From the IMG/VR virus record IMGVR_UViG_3300022939_000006: a DNA stretch of 64,000 nucleotides. One strand, 5' to 3'. Of the stretch, positions 7,552 to 55,343 are shown piece by piece. The notes beneath the pieces are model-generated. The model ran no database searches, was not told the DNA's origin, and saw nothing but the letters and a program-made list of their open reading frames with translations. Made by a program: the position numbers and the translations under genes. Position 1 is the stretch's first letter. Each line of letters begins with the position of its first letter. The stretch comes from an uncultured virus (IMG/VR IMGVR_UViG_3300022939_000006). Its lineage: Duplodnaviria > Heunggongvirae > Uroviricota > Caudoviricetes.

Positions 7552-7559
7552 TATTTATT
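7552..7559 (-). promoter_or_regulatory. Late promoter (AATAAATA)
   Basis: TAAATA core overlapping the upstream stop codon. Confidence 0.6.
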
Positions 7560-10500
7560 AATTTGGCAACTCCGTCGTTCTAGCACGAATAAAGTTTGCT
7601 ATGTCATTGTCTGCATCTGCTAAACTCTCGCCTAAATTTGTCCAAGTTTTACCAATACGTCTAATAACCACTATTTTTTGTCCATCAGTTGGAGTTTCTG
7701 CAAGTTGTATTGTATTACCGTTAAGTGTAAACTCTGCATTTGCTGTTATATCTCCTTCTGGGCTATCTTGATCTACAAATCTTGTTACAAAATTACCTTG
7801 GGCATCTTTTGTATCAGTTTGGTAAACACTAATAGCACTTTTACGTAATCTACGTCCTGCTACAAAAACTTCAAATAAATCTGCTGTAATTTCAGCTACA
7901 GTTTTAGTAGATCCCGAATCTTGTTTGTACTGTGTTGCAATAGCTGAAGCATCAAAATCTAATTCATATGTGCTTGCAACGCCATCTGCTGTGAAAATTT
8001 GAGTAATTGTTTCATCTCTGTAGGGGATATTTTCGCTTGGTCCTTGTTCAATAACTTCTGTTCCTGTAGTTAAAAGTGTATTAACACCAGTACCTAGTGT
8101 ACCTCTACGTATTTGACGTAAACTATTACCCTGTTTCACAAAATATTCTATTCTTTCACCATTTATAAACACTACACCAGGTATTTTGCTTGCTTTACTA
8201 GGAGCATTCAAACCTGTTGCATCAACAAGATCTATTTTTGTATCAAACCAATTTAAATCACTTGCTAGTTTGTACTTAGTATTATCATCAATGCGTTTGT
8301 AGTGAACGCGATTCAATATATCTTTAAATTCTCTAAATCCAAACTTGACTGTTAATTTTTCCTGACTCCATTCAATATATTCTATAGTATCATTTGCACT
8401 GATATTTTTTAATATTTTAATATAATATGGATCATCTGTAGTTCTGTAATCAACATTTGCTACTAATCTATCACCATTTAAGAAAACCCAAACATCTTGT
8501 GCATGAGACGCTTCTTTTCTTAATTTTATAATGCCATTTGCAAGGCTTACATAGTCTGCGAATGCTTGTGTACCTCCAACAAGAGTTTTTCTTGTTAAGA
8601 AATCATATTTTGTTCTAGTTAAGTTTTGAATATCATGATTACTAAACATTTGCACTTCAACTGTTGATCCTAGTACAGGTGCTGTGTCAAAGTAAACTTT
8701 GTCTCTAGTTGATATAAATCTTTGTGTGCTTGTTTCATCTGTACCTACATATCCAAATGCATATTCACCATCTGCCATTAGGAATATTTCTAGTTTGTCT
8801 CCAACTACTCCTATTCCTTGTGTAAGTGTAATACTGTTTGCTGTACTATTCCATCTATAATCAATTGCTTTGCGTAATAATTCATCGTTTAGATATACTT
8901 CAACTTCACTTGTTTTCACGCTGTTAGAATAGTATTGCCAATCTTCTATGAAGTATTCTCTTTCGTTTGCTTCGATTAACATTTCTATATTATATCCTGC
9001 TTGAAGTATAACATCATTAACACTTACTATTGTGTTATGTTGAGTAGGTAATCCACCAATAGAATCTGTTTGTATATCAAATACTGTTGTACTACCGTCA
9101 CCAACAAAAGTATGAGTAGTTGTAGAACTATATGACTTATTACTTCCGTAGAAAATACCGTAGTCTACTACTTGTCCTATCTGAGGTGCAACATTAAATT
9201 CTATACCAATTAATCCATCATCTGTTTTATAAAGCTGACTTGATATTTCTACACCATTTATATTTGCAAAGTGTGTGGCATTATCTGTCCAAATTGCATT
9301 TGTAACAAAAGTATTAGTGCTTCCGTCTGCTACAAATTTATCAATGTCGAGAATTTTCTCTCCACTGTTACCCATAGTAACAATGTTAAGAACTTTACCA
9401 GCTGTAGGTATAGTGTCAAACGTTAATGTATCATTTACCCAATCAATAGTATAATCTACTTTTTTAATTGTAGCATTATCTAATTTGACCCACACAGCAT
9501 CTATACTATTAGGATGCTGACCTAGATCAAATGTTCCGTTGACTCCATCAGTAGTCCAAAACTTACTAATTATTTCGCTTGCACCATCATCTGGTCTATG
9601 ATAAACTTGAATATCTACAGTATCTGCAATTCTACCCGGAACTAGTTCTTCAGGTCCTGTAGTTGTCATAGGAGTAATAAAATTATCTCCGTCTACAATT
9701 ATTTCTGCCGCATCTATACCTTTTGCATTATTATATGATAATGCTCCTCCTGATAGTTGCGTGTCGTAACTTGCACTATCTGGCTTAAAGCTACCATCAC
9801 TTGTAACTTTTCTTAAAATGAACACATCACCATTTGTGCTTGGTATTACAAGATCATCTAAATTAAGTGTTGTTTGCTGACCGTCTCCTGTAATACTACG
9901 CATTATAGCATTTGGATTTGCACCTCTGGAACTATCATGTAGGTAATTAGGATCATCAATTCGTACATTATTTTTGTATACATTATATACAACACCATTT
10001 TCTAAAGGATTATCCCAACTAAATTCTACTGTTGATCCATCTAGCTGAACTATGATATCTTCATATGTATTATCGTAAATATCATATGGTACTGTTCCAT
10101 AACCGTCTACTTCAAAGCCACCGCTACCTTTAAAATCGAAGCTCTTAACTTCGACACCACCAAAATCAACACCTTCCATTAACTGTGTAATGTCCTTGCC
10201 AAGCATGCCTGAGGTAGGTGCATAGTACATTTCAATTCTATCTTGGGCTGTTAATAAATTAGGTGATAGTTCATAATCTACTTTTACGACTGTGCCTAAC
10301 TTAGGCGCATCAGTAAATATAATTCTTCCCTTTTCTCTTGTATATGTTTTTGTTTTATCTATATAATTTTCAAAAGTATATTCGCTTCTTAGTGATTCTA
10401 CTCCATTTAGATAAACTTTAACTTTAGCACCATTTAAATTCATAGGCCATTTTAAATTAAACACACTAGTAACTGCTGTTCCTGTAAATGTTTCTGATTT

Positions 10501-13500
10501 TTTAACTTCTAGTATGTAAGGAGTTCCGCTAACTCTGTCAAATTTAGTAATTACATGCATTGCTCTTACTTTACCATTGCCAAGAACTGCACTTGCTGAA
10601 CCAAACTCGCCGCCATCAGATACTGAACCGTTTAATACTACGTCAGGTATACTTGTATAACCGCTACCAGGAGTTAATATTTCAATTTTGCTCAACTTGC
10701 TATTACTTAGGTATGCTTTTGCAGTGGCACCTGATCCGCCGCCTCCTTCAATAGTAACTTTAGGAGGTAATACATATAAATTTCCAGTTTTACCTATTGT
10801 TATTTCTTTAATTTCATAGCCTACATTATCTTTCCACCATTTGTCAGGATACTGATCAATACTATCAGGTAGATTAGTTATTACATTGTTATTAATTTTT
10901 GTATTTGTAGGAATAATTTTTTGTTTAATGTAATCATATCTCGGAGGTAAATCAAAATCAGAAATTGTAGTATTTGTAGGTTCTACCTTTTCATAAGAAC
11001 TTACATACTGTCTAACTTTAGTTTTGTATGGTTTTACTTCGTTGATATAATCTTGGTAACTTTCAATGCTATCATTTTTAAATGTAATTCTTTGGCTTAA
11101 ATCGCCAACATTGTGTACTGCTTGAATAAAGCTAGTTTTGAATGCCCAATCTATATTAGGTTGTTCTTTAAATGCATATCTTAGGCTTGCTACAAATAAC
11201 TTGTTGTATTCGTCATTCAGATTGTCAACAAACAAATTGTCTCTCAAAACTTCAAGTATAATACGTGTTTCAGTAACAGGCTGATTGTCATAAAAATTAG
11301 TATCAAAAGTGTTACTATCAAATCCAGTTAAATTATTTTCAACATCATACAACCCTGACTTAAATTGTATTGTTGCATTTTGTTTACCAACTACTGCATA
11401 ATTTACTGTGTAATCTACATTTTGTTGATCGTCTATCTTTTCTAACAACAACCAACCGCCTGTGCCAACACTACTAATTTTTACAATATCACCTACATTG
11501 TTTTGTAAGCCATCTAACTGATAGCTGTAGTCTATAAGATCTTTAATTTCAGTAAATGCGTTGAACCCATCTTCGTACCAATCTTTGTATTCCCAAAATA
11601 GATTTGTATCAAACCTCTGCGCTACTGTTCTATTCCATTTAGATCCATTGTAATTGTATAAACTCCATTTATTAGAAACTGTATCGTCATTTACAACTAG
11701 AACAGTAAAGTTTCTTACTGTAAGTGTAGTAGCAGAATCGTAACCTTCGCCTGGATCTACAATATTAACACTAGTAATTTTACCGACCTCGTCAATTGTT
11801 GTTTCTATTATAGCATCTGTACCTATACCATTTACAGTAACGGTTGGTCCTAATCTTGATGTTAATGTTTCTGTGTAACTAGGATCAATATAACCTCTAC
11901 CAGGATTAGTAATAGCTACAGACACAATTCTACCGTCTATAATTGTAGGTGTTAACTCAGCTGTGATACGCTTTGCTACACCTACAAAAGGTAAATCTTG
12001 GAATGTGTCAATTGCTAGGTCATATCTTCTTGATGTAATATTAGGTTGTGGATCACTTTCTCTAAGTCTACTAATGTCAAACTCGTCTACAATAATATTT
12101 TTAATTAAAACACCGTTAGCTCTTTCAATTACTTCTTTAAGAGCTTCAGTTCTATTAACAAACATACTTTGTCTTGGTTTGTTATTAATACCATATTTTG
12201 CTTTTGCACTTAATCTTGGATCTGGGACTTGTCTATCTTTTCTATCATAACCTATTAGACTATCAAACCATTTTAATTCAATATCTCTATTTGGTCTACT
12301 AGAGCCAATTCCGTCTGTTAAGATTTGGTACTCTAAATGTCTATTCTGTTCTTGATTATCTAAAGTGTAATAACTTAAATTCAATGCAACATTGTTTCCT
12401 GACAGTAGAGGTTTTACATTAAACAGAGCCATTCTATCTTTACTCTGTAGTGCCGCAAAAGCATAACCTTGTCCTGCTGGATCATTAATTAATTGGCGGA
12501 CGGCAAATGCAGTTAATTTTCTATTTTCTACACTAGGTAATACCTTTTTGTTTGCTACCCAATAAAAATATTTAGGTTTACTTCTACCTGCGACACTATC
12601 CCATACTAGTCTTGTGCTGTAAACTTCGTCACCATATCTACTAATTCCACTTATGCCCCTGTCTAAACCATCATTAGTATCAGCAATCTCATTCCATTCT
12701 GCAGGTAATAAATCAGTCATTACCCATTCATAAACATTTACTATACCATTAGGGAATGGTTTGCCCCAATAATTTGTTTGATATTGTATATCATTTTGAT
12801 AATAGTTATAATATTTAACTGCACCTATATCCCACCATAGTTGTCCTACATGATCTGCACCCCAACTATTTTGTTCATCAACTACAACCGTATCATCTCC
12901 TATGCTATAAGTTGCAGGATCATAATATGTTTTGTAACTTATTTCTTGTTCTGCAGGACCTGCAATTTTTCCTTGTACAGGATCAATAAAGTCTAGTGAT
13001 TGTACTAGAGTATTAGTTTCAGTATTGTAAAGGAATAAGTTTTTAATATTTGGAATATCAATTTGATCAATTGGTGATCTATGTGTGTTCCATGCTTTGC
13101 TTCCTATTGGTTTTCTAAAGTCTACAATAATACCTTGATAAGTTGCTAAATCTGTCATTTCTGGAATAGCAGTATAAACATGATTTTGTTTTACAAGCAG
13201 ATTTTTACCAAATTGTATTGCGTTAGGATCATCAAATATAAACTGTTCAGAATAAATTAAACTTTTGTTTATTCTTTCGTACATAAAAATTACGCCAGCG
13301 TCAATATTAGATGCTTTCTTAAATTTTGTAAACCCATCATCAAAAGTTGTAGTATCATTGTCAAAAGTATTAGGTATTTCAATATCACCATTTAATGATG
13401 TTACTGCAAGCTGATTACCGTCAAAGTTAATATATGCACCAAAATGTTCTGTTTGTTCATTGTTAGGTGATTTTAAAGTTTGGTTTAAAACAAACTGTTG

Positions 13501-16500
13501 ATTTTGTAATGTGTAAACATATACTACACCTTGATCTCTTTTAATATTATCATTAAAAGTTTCTGATATAGCAATCATTTCACCGTCTGTAGAAATACTT
13601 ACAGCATCACCAAAGCCGCTTAAATTGCCTGTAGATAAATCTACATATGGTGCTTCTATACTTTGAGAAAGTATATATTGTCCTCCTGGTAATTGTCTAT
13701 AAACATTTACTATACGTTCTCCTGTACTATCGTTTCCTTGTATGCGAGAACTTACAATCATTACAGAACCATCCGGCGTCTGATCAAAACTCTTAGCAAA
13801 ATCTCTAATTCCAAATTCTGGATCGAATGTTTCTTCACCTACAAATGCATTTAAAGGAGTATTTGGAATATATCCAACATGACTAATTCCAATATCTAAT
13901 GCTGTCCAATCAGCTTGTATAAATGCACTTCCGCTTGCAATGTTTCTAAGAGCTTGATATGGTTTTCCTAAATATTCTACAATTTCATTTTGTTTATAGA
14001 ATGTTTGTGAATCAAACTCTCCTCTAAATAAAGGATTAATATCTAAAGTAAAATCAAAAGTATTTGCATCTGTATCAGTGCCATGTTTAATAAAATGTAT
14101 ACTACCTGCATTATTGGAAGTATTGTTACCATTGCTTGCTACTGAAATTCTATAAATTCCACCATCTTTTGAAAAACTAATTTCATCGCCCAGTCTCTTG
14201 TAGTTTTGTCTTTCTGGCACAGTATAACTATTATAAACTTGGTACTGTCCGGTGTTACTTATATCATATACAGTAAACATACCTTCTTCTGTTAAGCCAC
14301 TCACTGTTGTACCAGGACCGTCTTTAACAATTAGGTTGTTTACAAGATTCCAGTCGTTATTATTTGAGGAAGGAATATTTGGATCCCTTGGAATACCCTG
14401 TAGTGTGTCTACATCATAGAAGAAGTATTCAAAATTAGTAAGTTGAGATTGAGCAACGTTTGCAAAATTACTGTCCTCTTCTATAACAATAATTTTACCA
14501 ACCAACGAACCAGCAATGCTTACTTGCTTAATTTCACCTATAGGTCTTGCGTTTGCCCTAATTCGAAGTATGTTTGCAGTTGTTCCAAAATTATCACCAA
14601 CACTCCATGTACCTGTGACATTTTTAACATAGATTCTTACATCGTTAAATTGTCGTTTGTAAAACGCAACTTCTGCTTCAGCACCTGTAACACTGTCTCT
14701 AACTGTATCGCCTATTACTAATTCAAATGGTAACTGTTGTCCGCCAACATTTTGGAACTGTGTGAATTCAAAATCAATATAACCATCCCATAAATCACTT
14801 ACTGTATGCTCTTTGTTAATTAATGTTCTGTCAATTGCTGTATCAGTGAAATCAGTATTAATTACATCTACATCCATATAAAATTTATCACCATTGCTTA
14901 GTGTAGATGTAAATGTAGCTGGTCCTCTTACAGTCCATAGAGGAGATGGATAAACTGCAAAGTTGTTGTTTGGATCTCCTTCGTATGTAAGTGTTTCCAT
15001 AAATGATGCTTGTTCATTTAAAGTAACTGGCAAAAGTAGTTGTGTTTGATTGTTTTGAGCTGTAACTTCTGTAGGTGTAATGTTGTAATAAAAGTTAGGT
15101 GTTGTTCTTCCACTTGCGGCAGTCAATATATCAACATACACTAATCCATGACCCGGATCTGTAAACACGTTTGAACTATCGTTACTTGTAGTATATGTTG
15201 GTGTATCTATCCACCAATAACCACCAAGGACATTTGTATTATCTTGGAAGTCTTCACTAAAGTCTCCTATGCGTAAATTGCCTACAAACAAAGTACCAGA
15301 TTGTTCAAAAGTACCATTTACATTTGAAACATAAATTGTTAATGTTTCAATATTATTTGCAACATGAACTATTTCACCACTTGCAACTGCACTTGATATA
15401 GTTTCACCAACTGACGGTAAGTTAACGTAGTTTTGTACTACTAAGACGTTATCAACTTTCTTTTGTATGGTGTGCTGATCACTTATTACACCGTCTGTGA
15501 TAGCTGGAAATTCTCCATTGAAAGGTTGTACATCAACATTGTATCCTTCAGGATGAACATAGCTAAAGTTATTCCAATTAAGAACTAATGTATCTCCAAC
15601 AGCTGAAGCATTATAAGCTGTATATGGTGCTCTTACAAGTACATGGCTTGTTTGCTGATTGTTTAATTTGTAATCACCCGCTTGTAGTAAATTAACTAAA
15701 CTACTATCAGATTGAGACACAATGTTTACAAAACTATCAAAACTAGAAAATTCAATAGCACTGGTGCTAGGATCAATTGCCTGAATTGCTTCAAATAAGT
15801 TTGGTCCGTATTTTACAATTTGTCTTTTATTATAAGCTCTTGAAGGATTAAACTCTCCTTGATAAAAAGAATAAACACTTGATGCTTTTGGTGAACCTAC
15901 TACAACATACAATCCATCTGGACTTACTGCAACACTTTCTCCAAATTGTGGTGCAACACTAGTATTTCCTATTACGCTAATAGGTGCATCTAAAATTTGA
16001 TCTAGTACAAAATTTGTGCTGTCGCTTGCACGTTTGTAAATATGGACTTGTCCATTACCTTTGTATGGAATACCAACTGCCATAACTGTATTAGATTCAT
16101 TGACGCTTATACTGTGCCCAAAGCCGTGGAAGGAACTATCAAGTTCTATAGAACTTAATATTTTTTGGTGCTCGTTATAAACTTTATTATTTTTTAGTAC
16201 AGTCCACTTATTATTGTCATCATTGTCTACCCAAATTATTTCATTTTGCTTTAAACTTGATGTTACATTGTCATTTGCACTTTGTAAATCTGCTTCTCGC
16301 TGACTTGTAAAAAATGATATTGTTCCTTGAGGATTTGCATCATCATAATTACTATAATCATCTTTGGTAGTTGTAAACTCAATTATATTATTATAAACTT
16401 TTGTTGCTTTATAAAAACCATCCATATTTGTATAGGTAGTGGTATTCATATTTGTAATACCAAATATATCACCTACGCTTATATCTCTGACTGTTTCATT

Positions 16501-19500
16501 TAAAGTAATTGTTATGACACTATTATTATTGTTAAAGCCAACTATTCTCAGTGAGCTTTCTGTATGTTGTAAAACATCCCATGTTTGGTTGTTAGTGGCT
16601 ACCCAGATATAAGCATGTTTGTCTATATCAGTAATGTTAAAATCTAATATACCGTCTTTAGTGGTAACTGCACGGTTGACATCTTGTCCTGTTACATATC
16701 CTACTGTTTTTACAAAAAAATCATCGTTGTATTTTGTAGGTAATTTGTTTGTGTCATATCCTGTTGGTTTTAAAAATACATCATAGTTTGGTATTCTGTA
16801 AACAAGATCAGTTTTTCCTACTGGAACATTATCTACTAGTTCAATTGTTTGCGGCTCAACTTTAAATTGATTTTCGTCTAGTTGCCATTCAATTTCATCA
16901 TAATTATCTGTAGCACCATAACTACCTGTTTTGATTGCCCATTCTTCGTTAAAATCTACACTTTCTTTGTTTGCACTAGCCAAACTATCAAATAGTTTAT
17001 CAATACTATTACGTGTACCTTTGTCTTGTATAAATCCTTGGTAGAATTTAAACTGGCTTACATCATCATTTATTATGTTTTCTAAATACTGTCTTTTTTG
17101 GTAGCCAGTTAAATGTTGAGCAAGTTTTTGTTGCTCTACATCGAAATTATCACTTTCTAATTCATAAAAATCTGTAAACTGATTAACTCTATAATCAAAG
17201 TTTGTAAGTAATTTAGGAGTAGGTTTAGAATCTAATTTATTCCATTTATTAGCAACAAATTTTTCAGTACCAGGCACTGTATTTTTTGCAGTATAATAAA
17301 ATTCTTTATAAAGCACTGTGTCGCCAATAGCATAATCTTTGTATTGTTCCCAATCTGATACTTCAGCTTTATCGTATACGAATCCTGGAATATTTAAACT
17401 TCCATCCCAGCCATCGCTTACATAACCTAAAACTCTAATTCTTTCTTGCCTATATCCTGTCACAGGATCATAAATTACATCACCGAACACACTTGTATTA
17501 TCTAAAAGTGCCACATGTTCTATTTGAACTAAAGGTAGTTCAACAAAGTACACTCCGTCTGCGGTGTTTACTAATGTTATATTGAAGTCATTACCAGATC
17601 TTGCTAATCTTGTAAATTCTCCTTTAAGTTGTTCACCACCTGCATTTTGCATTTTATTTTCATAAAATTTGTTTTGAAGATCATCAACTACATTGTATTC
17701 TTTTTTAAAGGTAATTTGATTAGCACTAGGACTTAGTGTTAAAACAGTACCCGGTGCCCATCCTTGAGTGGTCCAATACATAAATTCTTTAGTGCTTAAT
17801 TTCCAATCTTCTACAGTTTGAGATTCTTGGTTGTAATAATCAAAAGTGAATCCTTGTGTTTCTAAATAGTTTCCGTAACCTAAAAGAAAATCAACAACTT
17901 CTTGTGTAGTATTAAAAACATGACCATAAGGAAGAGTTTCTACATCTGTATCAAAGGCAGTTCTAAATTGAGCAGTTACTCCGCCTCTTGTTGGTATTGT
18001 AGGAATTTTGGTATATTTGCTTGGATCAAAAACAGTTGTGCTTGTATGTTCTTCAACTACTTTATAAAAAGTATTTTCATATCTAACATAACTGTCAATA
18101 GTATATTTTTTATCAGTATCCCATTCTACAAAACTTTCACTTACTCCTCCAACATTTATGTTAGGGTCATCTACTCTTTGTTTTGCAGGTGTATAGTAAA
18201 ATAAAGGATCTAATTTGTTATATCCTCTAATAACATATCCATATGATTGTTTTTCTATTATTACGCCGCTATAAGATACAATACTAGTAGGCGAACTTCT
18301 GTTTAATGCAACTGTATAATTTTCAAAAGGTAAAAATACGTTACCTTTATTAAACGGAGTTCTGCTGTCTAAAATAAATCTCAATTTATTCTTATCTGTA
18401 AATGCGCCTAGTTTAATTCCTAGCTGTAACTTCAATCCTTTTAATTCTGCTTCATATTGATTATTTGTAATTTCACTATTTTTCAAAACATAATTTACAA
18501 CATAATCTACAAAACCGCTTGTATAAACTCTTGTTACATCGCCATACAAATTACTAAATTCTAAGTTTTCTATTGCAACTGGTTTATTTGTATTTCTGTA
18601 AACCCATTGTCCTGCAAGGTTTCTTTTTACAGCTGAAATATCCCAACCTAGTCCCATTACTTTAGAAGGTTGTGATAATAACCATGCTTTTACAATACTA
18701 AAAGGATATTCTCCACTTCTTCTCCAAGCAGTTTCTGCAGGGCTTTGATCACCAAACTTAAATCCTTTTCTTGCATAAGACTGTACATAGTCTTTTGCAT
18801 ATCCGCTGGCTAGTGGACTTATTAGATTACCATCTACATCAACAGGAATATGTTTTGAAAGATCTTGTCTAACATATTTTTCATTGTATATTACAGGTTT
18901 ACCTGGTTCTGCAATTTTTCCTGCTTCTAAATCTTCCCATAGTATTAAGTTATCAGAAGTATACGGAGCAGGACCATACTTTTTCTCCCACCATTTAGGT
19001 TTAATACTAAACCCTAGCATTTCCCAAGGTGTAGTATGAGGTGTGTCAGTGTCGTATGCTTCTTTATATACATTTCTCCAGAACCCGTCAATTCTTATTT
19101 TGCCAGGGCCTGTCATGTCTGAGTAGTTGTAAGTAAAGCTGTCTGTCTCTAAGAAACTATTATTTGTAGTATAATCTACTCCGCCTAGACTTTCTGACCA
19201 TTTTACAAAGTCTTTTAACAAAATATTGTCTATTTGTTTTTTTGTAAACTTTGTATCTCTGTCTTTTGACGGTACAAAGTCATTTATGTCTAACTTTGTT
19301 GTATCATAATTTACTTTACAGTTATTATAGATTCTTCTTTCTAATTCTAATAATAAATTGTCTCTAAAATCATTATATCCTACTGTTTTACTTCCGTCAT
19401 GTCCAATAATTACTGTTGTAGGTGTTCTATATGAATTATCAATTTCTATTCTAGGCAAAAACTTAGGATATAAACCTAGTTTTGTAGGAGTAGGTGGTAC

Positions 19501-22410
19501 AAAACTTCCGTCTGTACTTTCATACTCAAAAATTTCTATTTTGTCACCTTCTATTTTAGGTGCAGTTATTACAGCAAATCCGTCATTGTTAAATGTGTAA
19601 TCTATATCATAAGCTAATTGTTGTCCGTTTTTATAAATTAGTACAGATTTATTTGACATTTTTGATAAATCAAATACTTCACTTAAACTAAAAAAGTTAT
19701 TTTCTTCATCGTATACTGTAAACTCTAATCTTTTATAACCTTGGTAAGGAATCATGTCACTAAAATAAAAAGGATCATTAGTAGTTTTTGTTTTGAATGC
19801 TTCCTTTAGTATTCTATCAACATGTTGTCTAACAGGTCCTTCATAACCTAATGTGTCAGCAATTTGTATAAAAGATCTTTTAAATGTTCTATATTCTTTT
19901 CTAGCAAAGTCTATAGCTTTTACTATGTTGCCGCCTTGTGTTGTAATATGGTAAAAAGGTAATACAGCAGGGCCTGCATGTTGTAAGAATTTTTTACCAA
20001 ATTGGTTAACATCTCCTAAGTCACCTAAGTTACTGTTACCGGGAAACTCTCCTTTAAAATCTTTTAAGTCTTCTATCATGCCAAAAACATGATCGTTAAT
20101 TTCGCCTAAAGTAAATGTTGATAAATCTTTATTTGCACTATTTCTTTCTAGTCCAAACGGAAATTCGTAATGTCCGTTTTGATTTTTAGATGTAGCACTA
20201 TGAGTTTTAATAATAACTTTTGCTTCGCCTTCAATAGGTGTGTCGAAAGTTACAATAGCTTTTTCATTTTGTTTTGACAAACTCCAGTCATATCTATACT
20301 TGTTGTCTACTAATACAGAAATATCTAAGTCTGTTAAAAGACCGCTTTTATCATAAACATCTATCTCAAATGCTTGTGCAGTATCTACGATATTATATTG
20401 TGCAACAACTTTTTGCCTTAGGTCATTTTTACCTTTTGTCCAACCATTTTTATATTCAAACGTACTAATATCTGAATACTTACGCAAAAATCCTTCTTTT
20501 GTTTTTTTGCTTACTACATTATTATTTTCTTGGTATGTAAAAGAGTTTGTAACTAGATCAAAATTAAACGTAATATCTCCTACGTTTTCTAATGCTCTGT
20601 AAACTAAAGGAAACCCTAGTTCGACGTCATCGGTGCCTGTACCAACAGCATAAGAAAATAATTTAGTTCCTTCAAATGTTGTTGTGGAATATACAGATGT
20701 ATCACTAAAACTTACACCGTTTTCGTCAAATAAATCAAAATGCGGTTGTTGATTTAATTTTGTTTTTTCCTGTCCTTTAATCCACTTTGTTCCATTATAC
20801 CACCAATGTTTTCCTCCGTTTTCAGTTCCTTTTTTAATTAGAACTACATCATTATTTTGTGGATTTGCATTAGTGTCTTCTATAAGAGCAATTTGTGGCA
20901 CTGTTCTATTATGTGTGATAAACTTAACAAGATATATTTTATTATTAACACGGATATCAGTATCTGCAACAAACAATACACGCATGCCGTCAGTTAAATC
21001 TACTCCGTCAATATTATATCCTACACCGCCTTCAATGTCACTAAACACATCTTTACTTTGTGTGTCAATAATATCAATATCGTATGCTTTCGATTGTGTT
21101 CCAAAATTATTTAATTTTATACCAGCTTCGAATTCTATAATAGGTCTTTTAGCTCTTTGTGATTGGTCAATATCAACTATATTACCATTTAATTCTGCGG
21201 CTTTTTCGATAACACTACGATGGAACCATTTGTTGTTACGTGACCAAGCGTTCCTGTCAGGAGATGCCCTGTTAATTACAATATAATCTTTATTAGCACT
21301 GTAACTAGCCGCATTACCATAAGGCAGTCTATCAAAACTTTGTCCATCAAACGGTATAGGAACATCGTCAGCATACGCAAGATTAATTACTAAATCTTGC
21401 TCGTTTATTAATTTAATTGAACTACCAACACCTTCTACAATATATTCACCTAACGCAAATTTTGCAGGTGTTACATCTCCTGCAAAATTAATTTTCATTC
21501 CGTTTTGTAAATTAAAACCTTTTGCAGTTTTATAAGTTTTTTTACCTAATATTTCTGCTTCTACATCTATTGCTGTTGCTTCGTCTGCATCAGATATTCT
21601 AATTATGCCGCCTGCATTGATATTGTTACTATCTACATAATATAATCTATTAGGTGCATCGTTAGGAACAGTAAAAGTAATTGTTCCTTCTTCTATATTA
21701 TTATTAATTAAAGAATTATCTTCATAGATAAATTCATCATCTAAGTTTCTTTCTGTTCTAATACTGAATTTCATTTCAGGAGTGCTTACCTGAAAATTAT
21801 AAGTTTGTCCTCTGAATAATTCAATAGTTGCATTTTGTTCTAAATTACTATTAAAAACAAATGCAGGACTAATATCATTTTGAACACTGTTAACTAAAAA
21901 AGTAGTTTCTATTTCTGTGCTTTGTCCTACAACTTGTACAGATGCTGGACCGTTTGGTAGCCAAAAGTATTCTCTAAAGTTTACAAGTTTATCCCAATCT
22001 ACATTAGGATTCCAAGAATAATATTCTGCTTGATTAAGTTTACTATGGTTAGTAACATCACTACCAAAATTTCTTAACTGGTTAATATAATCATTATAAT
22101 CTTTGTAATAATTTACATTGTCTAATAAATCTTTATTTACAACTACAGGTTCTAATTGATATGTTTCTCTGTCAGAGTTAATATCTTCTACATAATTGTC
22201 TGCAACACGAAACGCTTTTGCATCACGTCTGCCGTAATAACCATTTAACTTTACTGCAACACCCGGTTGAGTAATTTGATCTAAAGTTCCATCTAAAAAC
22301 TTTTCATTTTTTGGAGTACGAAAATACTTAGGAAGAAAGTCTTTTGTTTTTCTTCCTCTTTTGCCGCCAGCTGGTAACGGGCTTTCATTTTGCTTGTTAT
22401 CGTATGCCAT
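7558..22410 (-). CDS. Giant (4950 aa) multidomain virion/baseplate protein
   Basis: Uninterrupted 14.85-kb ORF coupled to gp6 (TAATG). Contains FG-GAP-like repeats (FG.SV.VS.DG), CBM5/12-like W...Y..GD.V.Y segments, (I/V)..PG.GY repeats and F..DG.T..F repeats. Confidence 0.75.
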   Translation of the reverse strand: MAYDNKQNESPLPAGGKRGRKTKDFLPKYFRTPKNEKFLDGTLDQITQPGVAVKLNGYYGRRDAKAFRVADNYVEDINSDRETYQLEPVVVNKDLLDNVNYYKDYNDYINQLRNFGSDVTNHSKLNQAEYYSWNPNVDWDKLVNFREYFWLPNGPASVQVVGQSTEIETTFLVNSVQNDISPAFVFNSNLEQNATIELFRGQTYNFQVSTPEMKFSIRTERNLDDEFIYEDNSLINNNIEEGTITFTVPNDAPNRLYYVDSNNINAGGIIRISDADEATAIDVEAEILGKKTYKTAKGFNLQNGMKINFAGDVTPAKFALGEYIVEGVGSSIKLINEQDLVINLAYADDVPIPFDGQSFDRLPYGNAASYSANKDYIVINRASPDRNAWSRNNKWFHRSVIEKAAELNGNIVDIDQSQRAKRPIIEFEAGIKLNNFGTQSKAYDIDIIDTQSKDVFSDIEGGVGYNIDGVDLTDGMRVLFVADTDIRVNNKIYLVKFITHNRTVPQIALIEDTNANPQNNDVVLIKKGTENGGKHWWYNGTKWIKGQEKTKLNQQPHFDLFDENGVSFSDTSVYSTTTFEGTKLFSYAVGTGTDDVELGFPLVYRALENVGDITFNFDLVTNSFTYQENNNVVSKKTKEGFLRKYSDISTFEYKNGWTKGKNDLRQKVVAQYNIVDTAQAFEIDVYDKSGLLTDLDISVLVDNKYRYDWSLSKQNEKAIVTFDTPIEGEAKVIIKTHSATSKNQNGHYEFPFGLERNSANKDLSTFTLGEINDHVFGMIEDLKDFKGEFPGNSNLGDLGDVNQFGKKFLQHAGPAVLPFYHITTQGGNIVKAIDFARKEYRTFKRSFIQIADTLGYEGPVRQHVDRILKEAFKTKTTNDPFYFSDMIPYQGYKRLEFTVYDEENNFFSLSEVFDLSKMSNKSVLIYKNGQQLAYDIDYTFNNDGFAVITAPKIEGDKIEIFEYESTDGSFVPPTPTKLGLYPKFLPRIEIDNSYRTPTTVIIGHDGSKTVGYNDFRDNLLLELERRIYNNCKVNYDTTKLDINDFVPSKDRDTKFTKKQIDNILLKDFVKWSESLGGVDYTTNNSFLETDSFTYNYSDMTGPGKIRIDGFWRNVYKEAYDTDTPHTTPWEMLGFSIKPKWWEKKYGPAPYTSDNLILWEDLEAGKIAEPGKPVIYNEKYVRQDLSKHIPVDVDGNLISPLASGYAKDYVQSYARKGFKFGDQSPAETAWRRSGEYPFSIVKAWLLSQPSKVMGLGWDISAVKRNLAGQWVYRNTNKPVAIENLEFSNLYGDVTRVYTSGFVDYVVNYVLKNSEITNNQYEAELKGLKLQLGIKLGAFTDKNKLRFILDSRTPFNKGNVFLPFENYTVALNRSSPTSIVSYSGVIIEKQSYGYVIRGYNKLDPLFYYTPAKQRVDDPNINVGGVSESFVEWDTDKKYTIDSYVRYENTFYKVVEEHTSTTVFDPSKYTKIPTIPTRGGVTAQFRTAFDTDVETLPYGHVFNTTQEVVDFLLGYGNYLETQGFTFDYYNQESQTVEDWKLSTKEFMYWTTQGWAPGTVLTLSPSANQITFKKEYNVVDDLQNKFYENKMQNAGGEQLKGEFTRLARSGNDFNITLVNTADGVYFVELPLVQIEHVALLDNTSVFGDVIYDPVTGYRQERIRVLGYVSDGWDGSLNIPGFVYDKAEVSDWEQYKDYAIGDTVLYKEFYYTAKNTVPGTEKFVANKWNKLDSKPTPKLLTNFDYRVNQFTDFYELESDNFDVEQQKLAQHLTGYQKRQYLENIINDDVSQFKFYQGFIQDKGTRNSIDKLFDSLASANKESVDFNEEWAIKTGSYGATDNYDEIEWQLDENQFKVEPQTIELVDNVPVGKTDLVYRIPNYDVFLKPTGYDTNKLPTKYNDDFFVKTVGYVTGQDVNRAVTTKDGILDFNITDIDKHAYIWVATNNQTWDVLQHTESSLRIVGFNNNNSVITITLNETVRDISVGDIFGITNMNTTTYTNMDGFYKATKVYNNIIEFTTTKDDYSNYDDANPQGTISFFTSQREADLQSANDNVTSSLKQNEIIWVDNDDNNKWTVLKNNKVYNEHQKILSSIELDSSFHGFGHSISVNESNTVMAVGIPYKGNGQVHIYKRASDSTNFVLDQILDAPISVIGNTSVAPQFGESVAVSPDGLYVVVGSPKASSVYSFYQGEFNPSRAYNKRQIVKYGPNLFEAIQAIDPSTSAIEFSSFDSFVNIVSQSDSSLVNLLQAGDYKLNNQQTSHVLVRAPYTAYNASAVGDTLVLNWNNFSYVHPEGYNVDVQPFNGEFPAITDGVISDQHTIQKKVDNVLVVQNYVNLPSVGETISSAVASGEIVHVANNIETLTIYVSNVNGTFEQSGTLFVGNLRIGDFSEDFQDNTNVLGGYWWIDTPTYTTSNDSSNVFTDPGHGLVYVDILTAASGRTTPNFYYNITPTEVTAQNNQTQLLLPVTLNEQASFMETLTYEGDPNNNFAVYPSPLWTVRGPATFTSTLSNGDKFYMDVDVINTDFTDTAIDRTLINKEHTVSDLWDGYIDFEFTQFQNVGGQQLPFELVIGDTVRDSVTGAEAEVAFYKRQFNDVRIYVKNVTGTWSVGDNFGTTANILRIRANARPIGEIKQVSIAGSLVGKIIVIEEDSNFANVAQSQLTNFEYFFYDVDTLQGIPRDPNIPSSNNNDWNLVNNLIVKDGPGTTVSGLTEEGMFTVYDISNTGQYQVYNSYTVPERQNYKRLGDEISFSKDGGIYRISVASNGNNTSNNAGSIHFIKHGTDTDANTFDFTLDINPLFRGEFDSQTFYKQNEIVEYLGKPYQALRNIASGSAFIQADWTALDIGISHVGYIPNTPLNAFVGEETFDPEFGIRDFAKSFDQTPDGSVMIVSSRIQGNDSTGERIVNVYRQLPGGQYILSQSIEAPYVDLSTGNLSGFGDAVSISTDGEMIAISETFNDNIKRDQGVVYVYTLQNQQFVLNQTLKSPNNEQTEHFGAYINFDGNQLAVTSLNGDIEIPNTFDNDTTTFDDGFTKFKKASNIDAGVIFMYERINKSLIYSEQFIFDDPNAIQFGKNLLVKQNHVYTAIPEMTDLATYQGIIVDFRKPIGSKAWNTHRSPIDQIDIPNIKNLFLYNTETNTLVQSLDFIDPVQGKIAGPAEQEISYKTYYDPATYSIGDDTVVVDEQNSWGADHVGQLWWDIGAVKYYNYYQNDIQYQTNYWGKPFPNGIVNVYEWVMTDLLPAEWNEIADTNDGLDRGISGISRYGDEVYSTRLVWDSVAGRSKPKYFYWVANKKVLPSVENRKLTAFAVRQLINDPAGQGYAFAALQSKDRMALFNVKPLLSGNNVALNLSYYTLDNQEQNRHLEYQILTDGIGSSRPNRDIELKWFDSLIGYDRKDRQVPDPRLSAKAKYGINNKPRQSMFVNRTEALKEVIERANGVLIKNIIVDEFDISRLRESDPQPNITSRRYDLAIDTFQDLPFVGVAKRITAELTPTIIDGRIVSVAITNPGRGYIDPSYTETLTSRLGPTVTVNGIGTDAIIETTIDEVGKITSVNIVDPGEGYDSATTLTVRNFTVLVVNDDTVSNKWSLYNYNGSKWNRTVAQRFDTNLFWEYKDWYEDGFNAFTEIKDLIDYSYQLDGLQNNVGDIVKISSVGTGGWLLLEKIDDQQNVDYTVNYAVVGKQNATIQFKSGLYDVENNLTGFDSNTFDTNFYDNQPVTETRIILEVLRDNLFVDNLNDEYNKLFVASLRYAFKEQPNIDWAFKTSFIQAVHNVGDLSQRITFKNDSIESYQDYINEVKPYKTKVRQYVSSYEKVEPTNTTISDFDLPPRYDYIKQKIIPTNTKINNNVITNLPDSIDQYPDKWWKDNVGYEIKEITIGKTGNLYVLPPKVTIEGGGGSGATAKAYLSNSKLSKIEILTPGSGYTSIPDVVLNGSVSDGGEFGSASAVLGNGKVRAMHVITKFDRVSGTPYILEVKKSETFTGTAVTSVFNLKWPMNLNGAKVKVYLNGVESLRSEYTFENYIDKTKTYTREKGRIIFTDAPKLGTVVKVDYELSPNLLTAQDRIEMYYAPTSGMLGKDITQLMEGVDFGGVEVKSFDFKGSGGFEVDGYGTVPYDIYDNTYEDIIVQLDGSTVEFSWDNPLENGVVYNVYKNNVRIDDPNYLHDSSRGANPNAIMRSITGDGQQTTLNLDDLVIPSTNGDVFILRKVTSDGSFKPDSASYDTQLSGGALSYNNAKGIDAAEIIVDGDNFITPMTTTGPEELVPGRIADTVDIQVYHRPDDGASEIISKFWTTDGVNGTFDLGQHPNSIDAVWVKLDNATIKKVDYTIDWVNDTLTFDTIPTAGKVLNIVTMGNSGEKILDIDKFVADGSTNTFVTNAIWTDNATHFANINGVEISSQLYKTDDGLIGIEFNVAPQIGQVVDYGIFYGSNKSYSSTTTHTFVGDGSTTVFDIQTDSIGGLPTQHNTIVSVNDVILQAGYNIEMLIEANEREYFIEDWQYYSNSVKTSEVEVYLNDELLRKAIDYRWNSTANSITLTQGIGVVGDKLEIFLMADGEYAFGYVGTDETSTQRFISTRDKVYFDTAPVLGSTVEVQMFSNHDIQNLTRTKYDFLTRKTLVGGTQAFADYVSLANGIIKLRKEASHAQDVWVFLNGDRLVANVDYRTTDDPYYIKILKNISANDTIEYIEWSQEKLTVKFGFREFKDILNRVHYKRIDDNTKYKLASDLNWFDTKIDLVDATGLNAPSKASKIPGVVFINGERIEYFVKQGNSLRQIRRGTLGTGVNTLLTTGTEVIEQGPSENIPYRDETITQIFTADGVASTYELDFDASAIATQYKQDSGSTKTVAEITADLFEVFVAGRRLRKSAISVYQTDTKDAQGNFVTRFVDQDSPEGDITANAEFTLNGNTIQLAETPTDGQKIVVIRRIGKTWTNLGESLADADNDIANFIRARTTELPN

Positions 22411-53865: not shown

Positions 53866-54240
53866 ATGTTGAAGCATAAACATTTGGTGGTAAGAGCAGA
53901 AGTTGATAATCCAATAATCAACAAAGCAAAAGCCACCAAATTTTTACGATCTTTAATCAAAAAAATTAATATGAAACCTTTGTATGGTCCAACTGCAAGC
54001 TATTGCAAAATGGAGGGTAACAAAGGAATAACTGCTTTTGCAATTATCGAAACAAGTCATATTGCAATGCACATATGGGACGAATCACAACCTGCACTAG
54101 TACAACTAGATGTATACAGTTGTTCAGACTTTGACCCAAAAACTGTATTTGAACATTTAGAGTCAATGAAACCAGTAGTAATTGACTATAAATTTTTAGA
54201 TAGAGAAAAACAATTCATTGAAATATTAAATAATAAATAA
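53866..54240 (+). CDS. speD: Pyruvoyl-dependent S-adenosylmethionine decarboxylase-like proenzyme
   Basis: HL.. N terminus, GITA..IIETSHIAMHIW.E, QLDVYSC..F; preceded by CTAAATA (53851-57). Confidence 0.85.
   Translation: MLKHKHLVVRAEVDNPIINKAKATKFLRSLIKKINMKPLYGPTASYCKMEGNKGITAFAIIETSHIAMHIWDESQPALVQLDVYSCSDFDPKTVFEHLESMKPVVIDYKFLDREKQFIEILNNK
54232..54239 (+). promoter_or_regulatory. Late promoter (AATAAATA) directly before the riboswitch
   Basis: TAAATA ends 6 nt before the aptamer 5' end. Confidence 0.6.
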
Positions 54241-54245
54241 TTATA

Positions 54246-54314
54246 CGTTCAGCCTACGGGCCGGAAGTAGCATTAAGCGAAGGAACGCACCTAAACTTTA
54301 ACAAAGGGAGGGTG
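54246..54314 (+). promoter_or_regulatory. glnA-type glutamine riboswitch with RBS-sequestering stem
   Basis: P1 CGUUC/GAACG; P2 GCC-UACG-GGC; GGAAGUA..GAA E-loop; P3 GC-AUUAA-GC. Downstream CACCU pairs with GGGUG across the GGAGGG RBS. Confidence 0.8.
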
Positions 54315-54316
54315 AT

Positions 54317-54472
54317 ATGAACTTTAAATGGGATTTAAAGAAACCCTTAGCAGATCTTAAACGTAAAATAAGCACAAGTGCAGTATTACGTAAACGCTCA
54401 AAAGACAGCATTGCAAGACCTAAGGCCGAAAAAAACATACTATCTAAAGACTCTAGAATGCAAAAAATTTAA
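54317..54472 (+). CDS. 51-aa basic peptide under riboswitch control
   Basis: Below the ORF-track cutoff; strong RBS GGAGGG; MNFKWDLKKPLADLKRKISTSAVLRKRSKDSIARPKAEKNILSKDSRMQKI. Confidence 0.75.
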   Translation: MNFKWDLKKPLADLKRKISTSAVLRKRSKDSIARPKAEKNILSKDSRMQKI

Positions 54473-54491
54473 TTTTTTGGTAAAAAAGAGG

Positions 54492-54520
54492 TTGACATTT
54501 AGATAATAGTTTGCTATATT
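54492..54520 (+). promoter_or_regulatory. Strong sigma70-type promoter for the ncRNA
   Basis: TTGACA-N17-TATATT with extended -10 TG and an A-rich UP-like tract. Confidence 0.8.
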
Positions 54521-54526
54521 AGTAAC

Positions 54527-54745
54527 ATAAGCAACAAGAGAGTAATTAACTTTTGTTTTTTAGTGCATCGAAGAGGCTCTTACCAGAGGGTCGAAGATGG
54601 CTAGTTAGGGGTGGTACCCAGGCATGGTTGCAGAAATGCGTTGTGTCACATCGCTCTACCGAGCGGAACTAGGCGCCCGGGATTCAGACAGGTATCTGCG
54701 TCGAAGGGTTGTAGGTGAAACCGAGTCCTACCTAAAATTGCTTAT
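54527..54745 (+). ncRNA. Unassigned ~220-nt structured ncRNA
   Basis: Own promoter and terminator; 5'/3' closing helix ATAAGCAA/TTGCTTAT; multiple hairpins; no RBS-led ORF. Confidence 0.8.
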
Positions 54746-54753
54746 TATCTTTT

Positions 54754-54787
54754 AAGGTTTACAAAGGAGACTTTGTAAGCCTTTTTT
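54754..54787 (+). terminator. Intrinsic terminator
   Basis: AAGGTTTACAAAG-GAGA-CTTTGTAAGCCTT-TTTT. Confidence 0.9.
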
Positions 54788-54794
54788 CATTTGT

Positions 54795-54896
54795 GATAAA
54801 TACTTGTGTCAGGTAGTGTGCCGCGAGGCGGACTTATGGGGAACCAACCCCGTAGCACCTAGAACGTGCATCGGACTTCTATAAAGGAGAAAACAA
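54795..54896 (+). promoter_or_regulatory. Late promoter (GATAAATA) plus structured 5' leader
   Basis: Three hairpins lie between the promoter and AAGGAG-ATG. Confidence 0.6.
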
Positions 54897-55343
54897 ATGG
54901 GAAGACCACTTAATAAAAGATACTTCGGCGAACCAACTGCCGGAGGTAATGAAATCAAATGCGATTTTCATAACGGGACAGCAGTTGTTGAAGGACACAT
55001 TGTTCGTCAAAAAGGTAGTAAGAAATTCGTAGTAGCAGAAATCGGTGCATCAGACACTGAATACACTTGCACATTAACAACAGGTAAACTTATGTCAGCA
55101 CTAGCGGCTGGTGAAATGGGTATCACTATGTTAATGGATGATTCAGAAACATATCAAGTTTCTAAAATCACTGGACGTAAAGCAACACTAGTTGCTCCAG
55201 ATGCAACAGGAACAAACGCTTATGACGGCAAGTCAGTAGCTTGGAACTTTGACGCAGATCTAACTGATGGCGGCGCACAAGTTGAAGAAGCTGGTGATGA
55301 CGATACAGCAGGCGTTGATGATGACGATTTCGCTAACGCATAA
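54897..55343 (+). CDS. Hypothetical (probably virion) protein
   Basis: 148 aa; strong RBS; late promoter. Confidence 0.65.
   Translation: MGRPLNKRYFGEPTAGGNEIKCDFHNGTAVVEGHIVRQKGSKKFVVAEIGASDTEYTCTLTTGKLMSALAAGEMGITMLMDDSETYQVSKITGRKATLVAPDATGTNAYDGKSVAWNFDADLTDGGAQVEEAGDDDTAGVDDDDFANA

What the first reader, a model, noticed from the sequence alone, without database searches (positions are those of the whole stretch)
54492..54787. Stand-alone ~220-nt phage ncRNA with two complementary UACC/GGUA loop pairs (kissing loops, possible multimer)
Seen: a near-consensus sigma70 promoter (TTGACA-N17-TATATT) and a strong terminator bracket a unit with no RBS-led ORF. The predicted +1 (~54527) pairs with the 3' end (ATAAGCAA/TTGCTTAT). 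Two hairpins display UACC loops: CTCT-TACC-AGAG (54577-88) and TCGCTC-TACC-GAGCGG (54651-66). Two others display GGUA loops: GGG-GTGGTA-CCC (54608-19) and CAGA-CAGGTA-TCTG (54685-98). There is also a CTAGTT/AACTAG multiloop, a GCA-GAAA-TGC tetraloop and a T-arm-like GTAGG..CGAGT-CCTAC (54711-31). Inference: the matched loops form two kissing interactions, either intramolecular or intermolecular hand-in-hand oligomers reminiscent of phi29 pRNA or large self-assembling RNAs. The host-type promoter implies early expression, so it could be a protein sponge, anti-defence decoy or scaffold.
Basis: partly seen in the sequence, partly recalled or inferred. Interest (0 to 1): 0.88.

Follow-up and report, generated by a model that had tools for sequence, protein, structure and literature searches.

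The report
Known manA RNA, as its own gene
The flagged stretch is a real folded RNA gene of a marine phage, but it belongs to the already catalogued manA RNA family, whose matching loops were recently shown to clip copies together into rings and cages.

Summary
The unit is not a new class. Window 54533-54741 (+) matches Rfam RF01745, the manA RNA, over the whole model (59.3 bits, cut-off 55.2).

A 2026 cryo-EM preprint (10.64898/2026.07.01.735769; sections 7, 8 and 13 read) shows manA RNAs assembling in vitro through intermolecular kissing loops. The contacts are L5-L7' plus L8-L9' or L3-L8', and the products are pentamer-based decamers and a 60-mer cage.

I compared 81 distinct relatives from viral contigs.
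- **L5-L7:** the GGUA/UACC pair (54611-16 with 54657-60) covaries at all four base pairs.
- **L8:**
- **Architecture:** 33 of 76 copies have, like the window, their own sigma70-type promoter and a terminator. An extra helix joins the predicted 5' end to the 3' tail. This points to a free-standing RNA rather than a leader.

The biological role is unknown. This scan has reached the same reading on other DNA.

The parts
54492..54520 (+). sigma70-type promoter TTGACA-17-TATATT; predicted start near 54527
   Evidence: 11 of 12 matches. A promoter scoring at least 10 of 12 sits at the same distance in 62 of 79 relatives with enough upstream DNA.
54527..54533 (+). P0 5' strand (AUAAGCA), which pairs with 54740-54746
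   Evidence: At least 6 bp join the predicted 5' end to the 3' tail in 52 of 60 promoter-bearing relatives. No permutation of 500 reached the observed mean. Compensatory variants are listed.
54534..54556 (+). P1, the 5' hairpin of the manA model
   Evidence: alignment (model positions 1-26) and fold.
54533..54741 (+). manA RNA core (Rfam RF01745), full model 1-192
   Evidence: 59.3 bits, cut-off 55.2. My own model R1 gives 188.3 bits.
54575..54592 (+). Hairpin P3 with loop L3 (UACCAG, 54581-54586)
   Evidence: The loop core ACC is conserved, but no compensatory partner was found.
54608..54619 (+). Hairpin P5 with loop L5 (GUGGUA, 54611-54616)
   Evidence: This is the kissing partner of L7.
54621..54647 (+). 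Hairpin P6 with GAAA tetraloop L6 (54633-54636)
   Evidence: One search lists 22 distinct forms of the apical region among the 81 relatives. GAAA-type forms are the commonest, followed by GAAAA, GAGA and a 7-nt loop.
54651..54666 (+). Hairpin P7 with loop L7 (UACC, 54657-54660)
   Evidence: All four L5-L7 pairs show compensatory changes.
54675..54709 (+). Hairpin P8 with loop L8 (CAGGUA, 54689-54694)
54711..54731 (+). Hairpin P9 with 11-nt loop L9 (UGAAACCGAGU, 54716-54726)
   Evidence: L8-L9 complementarity exceeded every one of 1000 permutations.
54740..54746 (+). P0 3' strand (UGCUUAU)
54754..54790 (+). Intrinsic terminator (13-pair stem, GAGA loop, T run)
   Evidence: A terminator starts within 20 nt of the core in 35 of 78 relatives, and the stems differ widely in sequence.

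Best explanation
**What it is.** The unit is a member of the manA RNA family (Rfam RF01745) in a myophage related to Pelagibacter phage Mosig.

**How it is made.** In this genome it appears to be a gene of its own.
- A host-type promoter starts transcription near 54527.
- The first seven bases pair with 54740-46 in helix P0, which closes the nine-helix manA fold.
- An intrinsic terminator ends the RNA near 54790, giving a product of about 260 nt.

**How it most likely works.**
- Loop L5 (GGUA) pairs with loop L7 (UACC).
- Loop L8 (GGUA) pairs with L9 (ACC) or with L3 (UACC).
- In the solved family members these contacts form between molecules. They build a pentamer, which closes into decamers or a 60-mer shell.
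- I therefore think the functional form is a self-assembled RNA particle made early in infection, not a leader that controls the next gene.

**Shown and inferred.**
- Shown: family membership, the fold, the covariation of L5-L7 and L8-L9, and the promoter-P0-terminator architecture in many relatives.
- Inferred: the exact transcript ends, that this copy assembles, and that assembly occurs in cells.
- Unknown: what the particle does.
For: **Membership.** The full-length Rfam match scores 59.3 bits against a cut-off of 55.2.

**Fold.** The helices covary (45 of 69 pairs change on both sides; 0 of 500 shuffles reached this).

**L5-L7 contact.** Counted in the 69 of 81 relatives that have a 6-nt L5 and a 4-nt L7:
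- pair 1: GC 49, UA 20, so 69 of 69 paired
- pair 2: GC 65, AU 2, so 67 of 69 paired
- pair 3: UA 57, CG 2, so 59 of 69 paired
- pair 4: AU 49, CG 3, UG 4, so 56 of 69 paired

**Permutation test.** Within-molecule complementarity of L5-L7 and of L8-L9 exceeded all 1000 permutations of partners.

**L8-L9 examples.** Loop AUGGAA or CUGGAA goes with UUCCA in 7 of 8 cases, and CGAGA goes with UCUCG in the most divergent copy.

**Published structure.** The 2010 alignment annotates these same two loop pairs as pseudoknots (supplement file 5).

**Cryo-EM preprint.** It reports intermolecular L5-L7', L8-L9' and L3-L8' kissing loops and an L6-P6' GNRA contact, with decamers and a 60-mer.

**Stand-alone architecture.**
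- Promoter in 62 of 79 relatives and terminator in 35 of 78; both in 33 of 76.
- P0 of at least 6 bp in 52 of 60.
- The terminator stems are unrelated in sequence, and their listed sequences do not show a conserved element that could pair with the aptamer.

**RNA libraries.** Contigs identical to the window cover 54527-54677, 54547-54725 and shorter parts of the core. Summed word depth reaches 3552 over the core.
Against: - No experiment on this copy exists, and the assemblies in the preprint were made in vitro at high RNA and Mg2+ concentrations.
- I could not see the preprint's figures or sequences, so my mapping of its labels L3-L9 onto these loops is inferred from helix order and from L6 being the GNRA loop.
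- Covariation cannot distinguish contacts within a molecule from contacts between molecules.
- In the window L8-L9 is only 3 bp (GGU/ACC).
- The L7 loop reads UCCC, an uncompensated change that breaks a pair, in 8 of 81 relatives.
- 26 of 76 relatives have the promoter but no terminator and run into a gene, often gp32. Another 16 have neither, and 10 of those 16 have an ORF within about 25 nt of the core. The same RNA is therefore a leader elsewhere.
- Contigs cannot show transcript ends, and RNA libraries can contain DNA. One identical contig (54688-54838) runs across the terminator.
- The permutation controls ignore relatedness among the sequences.
Confidence: 0.6

Rival explanations
1. It is the classic cis-regulatory reading of manA. 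The fold is a ligand-sensing aptamer in the leader of an early transcript, and the terminator at 54754-54790 is its expression platform. Ligand binding then decides whether RNA polymerase reads on into the 148-aa gene at 54897.
For: - Rfam and Weinberg 2010 class manA as cis-regulatory and as a likely riboswitch.
- Among relatives, 26 of 76 lack a terminator and run into a gene, and 10 of the 16 with neither promoter nor terminator have an ORF within about 25 nt.
- The downstream genes include the published partners: mannose-6-phosphate isomerase, Hsp20, rubrerythrin and gp32.
- In the window, GCUUAU of P0 could pair with GUAAGC in the terminator's 3' half.
Against: - The terminators of 35 relatives differ completely in sequence, while the P0 3' strand is nearly constant. 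The listed sequences show no conserved antiterminator pairing.
- P0 and the terminator do not overlap; an 8-nt U-rich linker separates them.
- The next gene has its own leader (freshwater-2, 73.3 bits) and an ATAAATAC motif at 54796.
- The downstream genes are heterogeneous.
- My three literature searches turned up no report of a ligand since 2010.
Confidence: 0.2
2. It is a free-standing RNA that works as a monomer. The loop pairs are intramolecular pseudoknots, as drawn in 2010, and the compact fold binds a protein or acts in trans. The oligomers would then be an in vitro by-product.
For: - The 2010 alignment annotates the two loop pairs as pseudoknots of one molecule.
- Covariation fits this reading equally well.
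- The preprint gives no in vivo data; the term 'in vivo' does not occur in its text.
Against: Cryo-EM of five manA constructs showed closed oligomers with the same loops pairing between molecules. The preprint's data-availability section also lists 'monomer' entries for two of the five.
Confidence: 0.18
3. It is a chance arrangement of hairpins, or a short protein-coding gene.
For: ORFs of 35-43 aa lie inside the unit.
Against: - The Rfam E-value is 1.4e-12.
- There are 81 distinct relatives with compensatory changes in the helices.
Confidence: 0.01

Closest known systems
manA RNA motif (Rfam RF01745; Weinberg et al. 2010, PMC2864571; cryo-EM in bioRxiv 10.64898/2026.07.01.735769)
   Same: - The same nine-helix fold over the full model.
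- The same two covarying loop pairs as the published pseudoknots.
- A GNRA loop on P6.
- It occurs in marine T4-like phages.
- The published downstream partners (mannose-6-phosphate isomerase, Hsp20) appear among relatives.
   Different: - It belongs to a divergent branch found in Mosig-like phages of marine heterotrophs. Only 6 of 20 relatives tested reach Rfam's cut-off, 13 more score 34.7-54.7 bits, and 1 gave no hit.
- It has an extra closing helix P0, its own promoter and a terminator, so here it is not in a 5' UTR.
- Loop L3 reads UACCAG, whereas the 2010 seed rows I read have AUAUA or GGAAUUA.
phi29 prohead RNA (pRNA)
   Different: - No Rfam match to pRNA in the region at E up to 1.
- The fold is different.
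- It is not tied to a packaging motor.
- manA assemblies are pentamer-based decamers and 60-mers.
Large self-assembling bacterial RNAs (ROOL, GOLLD, OLE)
   Same: Natural RNA-only homo-oligomers. The preprint cites earlier long-RNA multimers as the comparison. The family names are from recall.
   Different: Those RNAs are several hundred nucleotides long, whereas manA is under 200 nt. No Rfam match to them was found in the window.

Membership tests
manA RNA (RF01745) | Covariance-model score at or above Rfam's gathering cut-off, over the whole model | tested here: met
   59.3 bits against 55.2, model positions 1-192 of 192, E = 1.4e-12.
manA RNA (RF01745) | Helix architecture: 5' hairpin, outer stem, hairpin P3, a junction holding three hairpins, then two 3' hairpins, all supported by covariation | tested here: met
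   the core helices (helices 3-13 of that call) pair in 75.7-100% of cells (81.9% for P2, 75.7% for outer P8). Across all 13 helices, 45 of 69 pairs change on both sides, and no shuffle of 500 reached this.
manA RNA (RF01745) | Pseudoknot or kissing pair between the GUGGUN loop (L5) and the ACC loop (L7) | tested here: met
   The window has GGUA/UACC, 4 bp. All four pairs show compensatory changes among 69 relatives, and no permutation of 1000 reached the observed complementarity.
manA RNA (RF01745) | Second pseudoknot, between the loops of the last two hairpins (L8-L9) | tested here: inconclusive
   The window has only GGU/ACC, 3 bp. Across relatives no permutation of 1000 reached the observed value, and clear compensated cases exist.
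manA RNA (RF01745) | Position in the 5' UTR of a gene (the cis-regulatory classification) | tested here: not met
   A terminator (54754-54790) and a separate leader (freshwater-2) lie between the RNA and the next gene. This is a feature of context, not of the RNA fold.
manA RNA (RF01745) | Self-assembly into pentamer-based closed oligomers | not testable with these tools
   Shown only for the preprint's five constructs. Their sequences and figures were not available to me.
phi29 pRNA | Match to the pRNA family model | tested here: not met
   No such match in 54150-55000 at E up to 1.
   ARAGORN found 0 genes in the window. The hairpin has an 11-nt loop.

The most novel reading that the evidence does not exclude
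In these marine phages the manA RNA is not a gene switch but an early-made, self-assembling RNA shell or ring. Natural selection on loop contacts that are intermolecular in the solved structures would mean the assembly itself is the functional form. The particle could enclose or sequester a host or phage component during infection.
Probability: 0.25. Interest if true: 0.85.

Novelty: new member of a known kind. Interest (0 to 1): 0.4.

Why it matters
The manA family has just been shown to form the first natural RNA-only icosahedral cage, but only in a test tube and with no known biological role. Two results here suggest the free, assembled RNA is what evolution maintains. First, many phage copies are self-contained genes with a promoter, a helix clamping the two ends, and a terminator. 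Second, the very loops that join molecules in the structures covary in nature. Pelagibacter phage Mosig is a cultured carrier of a copy (64 bits), so the question can be tested. For this scan the result is mostly a correction: the 'new' RNA is a known family, already met several times on other DNA.

Tried and rejected
1. **Riboswitch coupling of the terminator.** The window's GCUUAU/GUAAGC complementarity looked like an antiterminator. The 35 relatives' terminators are unrelated in sequence and their listed sequences do not share the element. Rejected.
2. **Other loop partners.** L3-L5 (80 of 1000 permutations reached the observed value), L7-L8 (69 of 1000) and L5-L9 (903 of 1000) are not supported. 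L3-L8 gave 13 of 1000 but shows no compensatory change.
3. **A general trade-off between L3-L8 and L8-L9 strength.** Spearman correlation -0.09, p = 0.42. The trade-off is visible only in the 8 GGAA-loop copies.
4. **T4-type late promoter.** TATAAATA occurs 3 times against 9.5 expected, and ATAAATAC 8 times against 6.5 expected, so neither is enriched. By my reading, at least 7 of the 8 ATAAATAC sites lie upstream of, and co-oriented with, a gene.
5. **The window's own genome.** It is not held. The nearest record, G001, lacks this region.
6. **Pseudoknot counts with the count of structure pairs.** The model-fitted alignment A3 shifts the L7 loop by one column in the divergent group. I therefore counted loops in a script instead.
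7. **RNA-library contigs.** Parts without cover, and the contig that starts at 54527, cannot be used as evidence for transcript ends.
8. **The 14-mer collection scan**. It returned many chance hits. Only loci confirmed by nhmmer and by model R1 were kept. L022 (GC-rich) and the partial copies L024, L123, L126 and L185 were dropped.
9. **Notes of this scan near this place.** None exist.

Full report
**What is there.**
- A sigma70-type promoter, TTGACA-17-TATATT, lies at 54492-54520, and a 13-pair terminator lies at 54754-54783.
- Between them are the listed hairpins. The MFE fold pairs the first seven bases after the predicted start (54527-33) with 54740-46 (-82.2 kcal/mol, z = -2.53).
- The window is phage DNA. 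PHROGs names a major head protein, a portal and a baseplate wedge nearby.
- The only similar GenBank phage records are Pelagibacter phage Mosig and the Methylophilales Melnitz phages.

**What it is.** Rfam places 54533-54741 (+) in RF01745, the manA RNA. The score is 59.3 bits against a gathering cut-off of 55.2, and all 192 model positions match.
- Two other Rfam elements flank it: a glutamine riboswitch at 54244-54291 and freshwater-2 at 54817-54899.
- Mosig carries a manA copy scoring 64 bits, 25-30 nt upstream of a rubrerythrin gene.

**Relatives.**
- Three pattern scans of viral contigs gave 183 loci. Four more loci came from Mosig and Melnitz.
- nhmmer with a profile of the core found matches in 125 of these 187 loci, and 120 were full length.
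- With the window these collapse to 82 distinct sequences. One differed from the window only in its ends and was dropped, which leaves 81 (A2).
- My covariance model R1 scores all 81 at 94-200 bits.
- Rfam's own model is weaker on this branch. Of 20 representative loci, 6 reach the cut-off, 13 score 34.7-54.7 bits and 1 gives no hit. Routine annotation would miss many copies.
- On an unfitted alignment of 34 relatives, the core helices (helices 3-13) pair in 75.7-100% of cells. Across all helices, 45 of 69 pairs change on both sides, and no shuffle of 500 reached this.

**The loops.** The 2010 seed alignment (supplement file 5 of PMC2864571) annotates two pseudoknots. One joins the GUGGUG loop to the ACCA loop. 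The other joins the loops of the last two hairpins.

A July 2026 preprint (10.64898/2026.07.01.735769; I read passages and sections 7, 8 and 13, not the figures or supplements) reports cryo-EM of five manA constructs.
- All five form closed oligomers built from a pentamer: decamers, an octamer/decamer mixture, and a 60-subunit icosahedral-like cage.
- One construct is held by intermolecular L5-L7' and L8-L9' kissing loops.
- Another is held by L5-L7', L3-L8' and an L6-P6' GNRA contact.

Counting helices in order, and using the fact that L6 is the GNRA loop, I map the window's loops as follows. This mapping is my inference.

| Loop | Sequence | Coordinates |
|---|---|---|
| L3 | UACCAG | 54581-86 |
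| L5 | GUGGUA | 54611-16 |
| L6 | GAAA | 54633-36 |
| L7 | UACC | 54657-60 |
| L8 | CAGGUA | 54689-94 |
| L9 | UGAAACCGAGU | 54716-26 |

**Tests of the loop pairs.**
- *L5-L7.* In the 69 of 81 relatives with a 6-nt L5 and a 4-nt L7, the four pairs read as follows:

| Pair | Base pairs seen | Mismatches |
|---|---|---|
| 1 | GC 49, UA 20 | none |
| 2 | GC 65, AU 2 | GA 2 |
| 3 | UA 57, CG 2 | UC 10 |
| 4 | AU 49, CG 3, UG 4 | AG 10, GG 3 |

  Every pair therefore shows compensatory change.
- *Permutation test.* This alignment-free test compares complementarity within a molecule against re-dealt partners. No permutation of 1000 reached the observed value for L5-L7 or for L8-L9. The counts were 13 for L3-L8, 80 for L3-L5 and 69 for L7-L8. 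The control ignores relatedness among sequences.
- *L8.* When L8 changes from GGUA to GGAA (9 copies) or GGCA (3 copies), L3 stays ACC.
  - L9 reads UUCCA in 7 of the 8 GGAA-loop copies.
  - In the most divergent relative, L8 CGAGA faces L9 UCUCG.
  - L3-L8 is nevertheless the stronger match in 59 of 81 copies. In the window it is 4 bp against 3 bp for L8-L9.
The second is possible, and is seen in one solved structure, but has no evolutionary support here.

**Stand-alone or leader?** Among the 81 relatives:
- 62 of 79 with enough upstream DNA have a promoter scoring at least 10 of 12 at the same distance.
- 35 of 78 have a terminator starting within 20 nt after the core.
- Of the 76 with both flanks, 33 have both elements like the window, 26 have the promoter only, 1 has the terminator only and 16 have neither.
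- The predicted 5' end pairs with the 3' tail over at least 6 bp in 52 of 60. No permutation of 500 reached the observed mean. Compensated variants include AUAAUACCAA/UUGGUAUUA and AUAUGC/GCAUAU.
- The terminator stems are unrelated in sequence while the P0 strand beside them is nearly constant. I see no conserved antiterminator and read the terminators as constitutive.
- Where the terminator is absent, the RNA runs into a gene. Most of these ORFs share the gp32 N-terminus, and one was confirmed as PF08804.
- 10 of the 16 copies with neither element have an ORF within about 25 nt. In the 3 of them scanned with Rfam, the RNA follows a tmRNA gene by 10-11 nt.
- The family thus occurs both as a leader and as a gene of its own. 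The window belongs to the second kind.

**Expression.** Contigs from four metatranscriptome runs were laid on 54300-55000.
- Contigs identical to the window cover 54527-54677, 54547-54725, 54570-54628, 54599-54651 and 54642-54725.
- Summed word depth over the core reaches 365 (X2) and 3552 (X3).
- These figures sum over relatives that share the conserved core. Contigs cannot show transcript ends, and RNA libraries can hold DNA. One identical contig (54688-54838) crosses the terminator.
- I take this as weak support for an abundant RNA and nothing more.

**Verdict.**
- It is a real RNA gene and a new member of a known family.
- The multimer idea is right for the family but already published.
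- The biological function is still open.
- Other sessions of this scan reached the same reading on other genomes. I had reached mine before reading their notes.
- Searches for 'manA RNA', 'manA motif' and 'manA riboswitch' in the held library listed no paper whose title or abstract describes the promoter-P0-terminator form. Apart from the three papers I opened, I saw only the listings.

Noticed in passing
window 54244-54291 and 54317-54472: A glutamine riboswitch (RF01739, 47.6 bits) lies 25 nt upstream of a 51-aa ORF that has no Pfam or PHROG match. The same riboswitch-then-manA order recurs in relatives L006, L015, L026 and L058, and L058 has two tandem riboswitches.
   Followed up: partly
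window 54817-54899, ORF 54897-55343: A freshwater-2 RNA (RF02980, 73.3 bits) forms the leader, including the ribosome-binding site and the ATG, of a 148-aa protein that starts MGRPLNKRYFG and has no family match. The same motif follows manA in 8 of 20 relatives scanned, and the same protein N-terminus follows it in relatives listed.
   Followed up: partly
window 54796-54803 and 7 other sites: ATAAATAC occurs 8 times in the window, which is not more than chance. At least 7 of the 8 sites lie upstream of, and co-oriented with, a gene, like the late-promoter core of T4-like phages (recalled). In gp32-linked relatives ATAAATA overlaps the 3' strand of P0, so late transcripts would lack the manA RNA.
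   Followed up: partly
L059 1082-1626, L051 1036-1626, L027 1384-2009: In one group of relatives the manA RNA starts 10-11 nt after a phage tmRNA gene. These copies have no promoter of their own, and an ORF follows at +17 to +23 in L059 and L051 and at +226 in L027.
   Followed up: no
L117, L142, L105, L074, L091 and others: In about 20 relatives a perfect 12-of-12 sigma70 promoter and manA lie directly upstream of gene 32, the ssDNA-binding protein (PF08804), separated by an A/C-rich leader of about 60 nt. This recalls the autoregulated gene 32 leader of T4 (recalled).
   Followed up: no
window 7558-22410 (-): A single open reading frame of 4950 aa lies here, which is very long for a phage protein.
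   Followed up: no
window 53866-54240: A 124-aa ORF just upstream matches the PHROG family for S-adenosylmethionine decarboxylase (phrog_3125, E = 1.5e-13).
   Followed up: no
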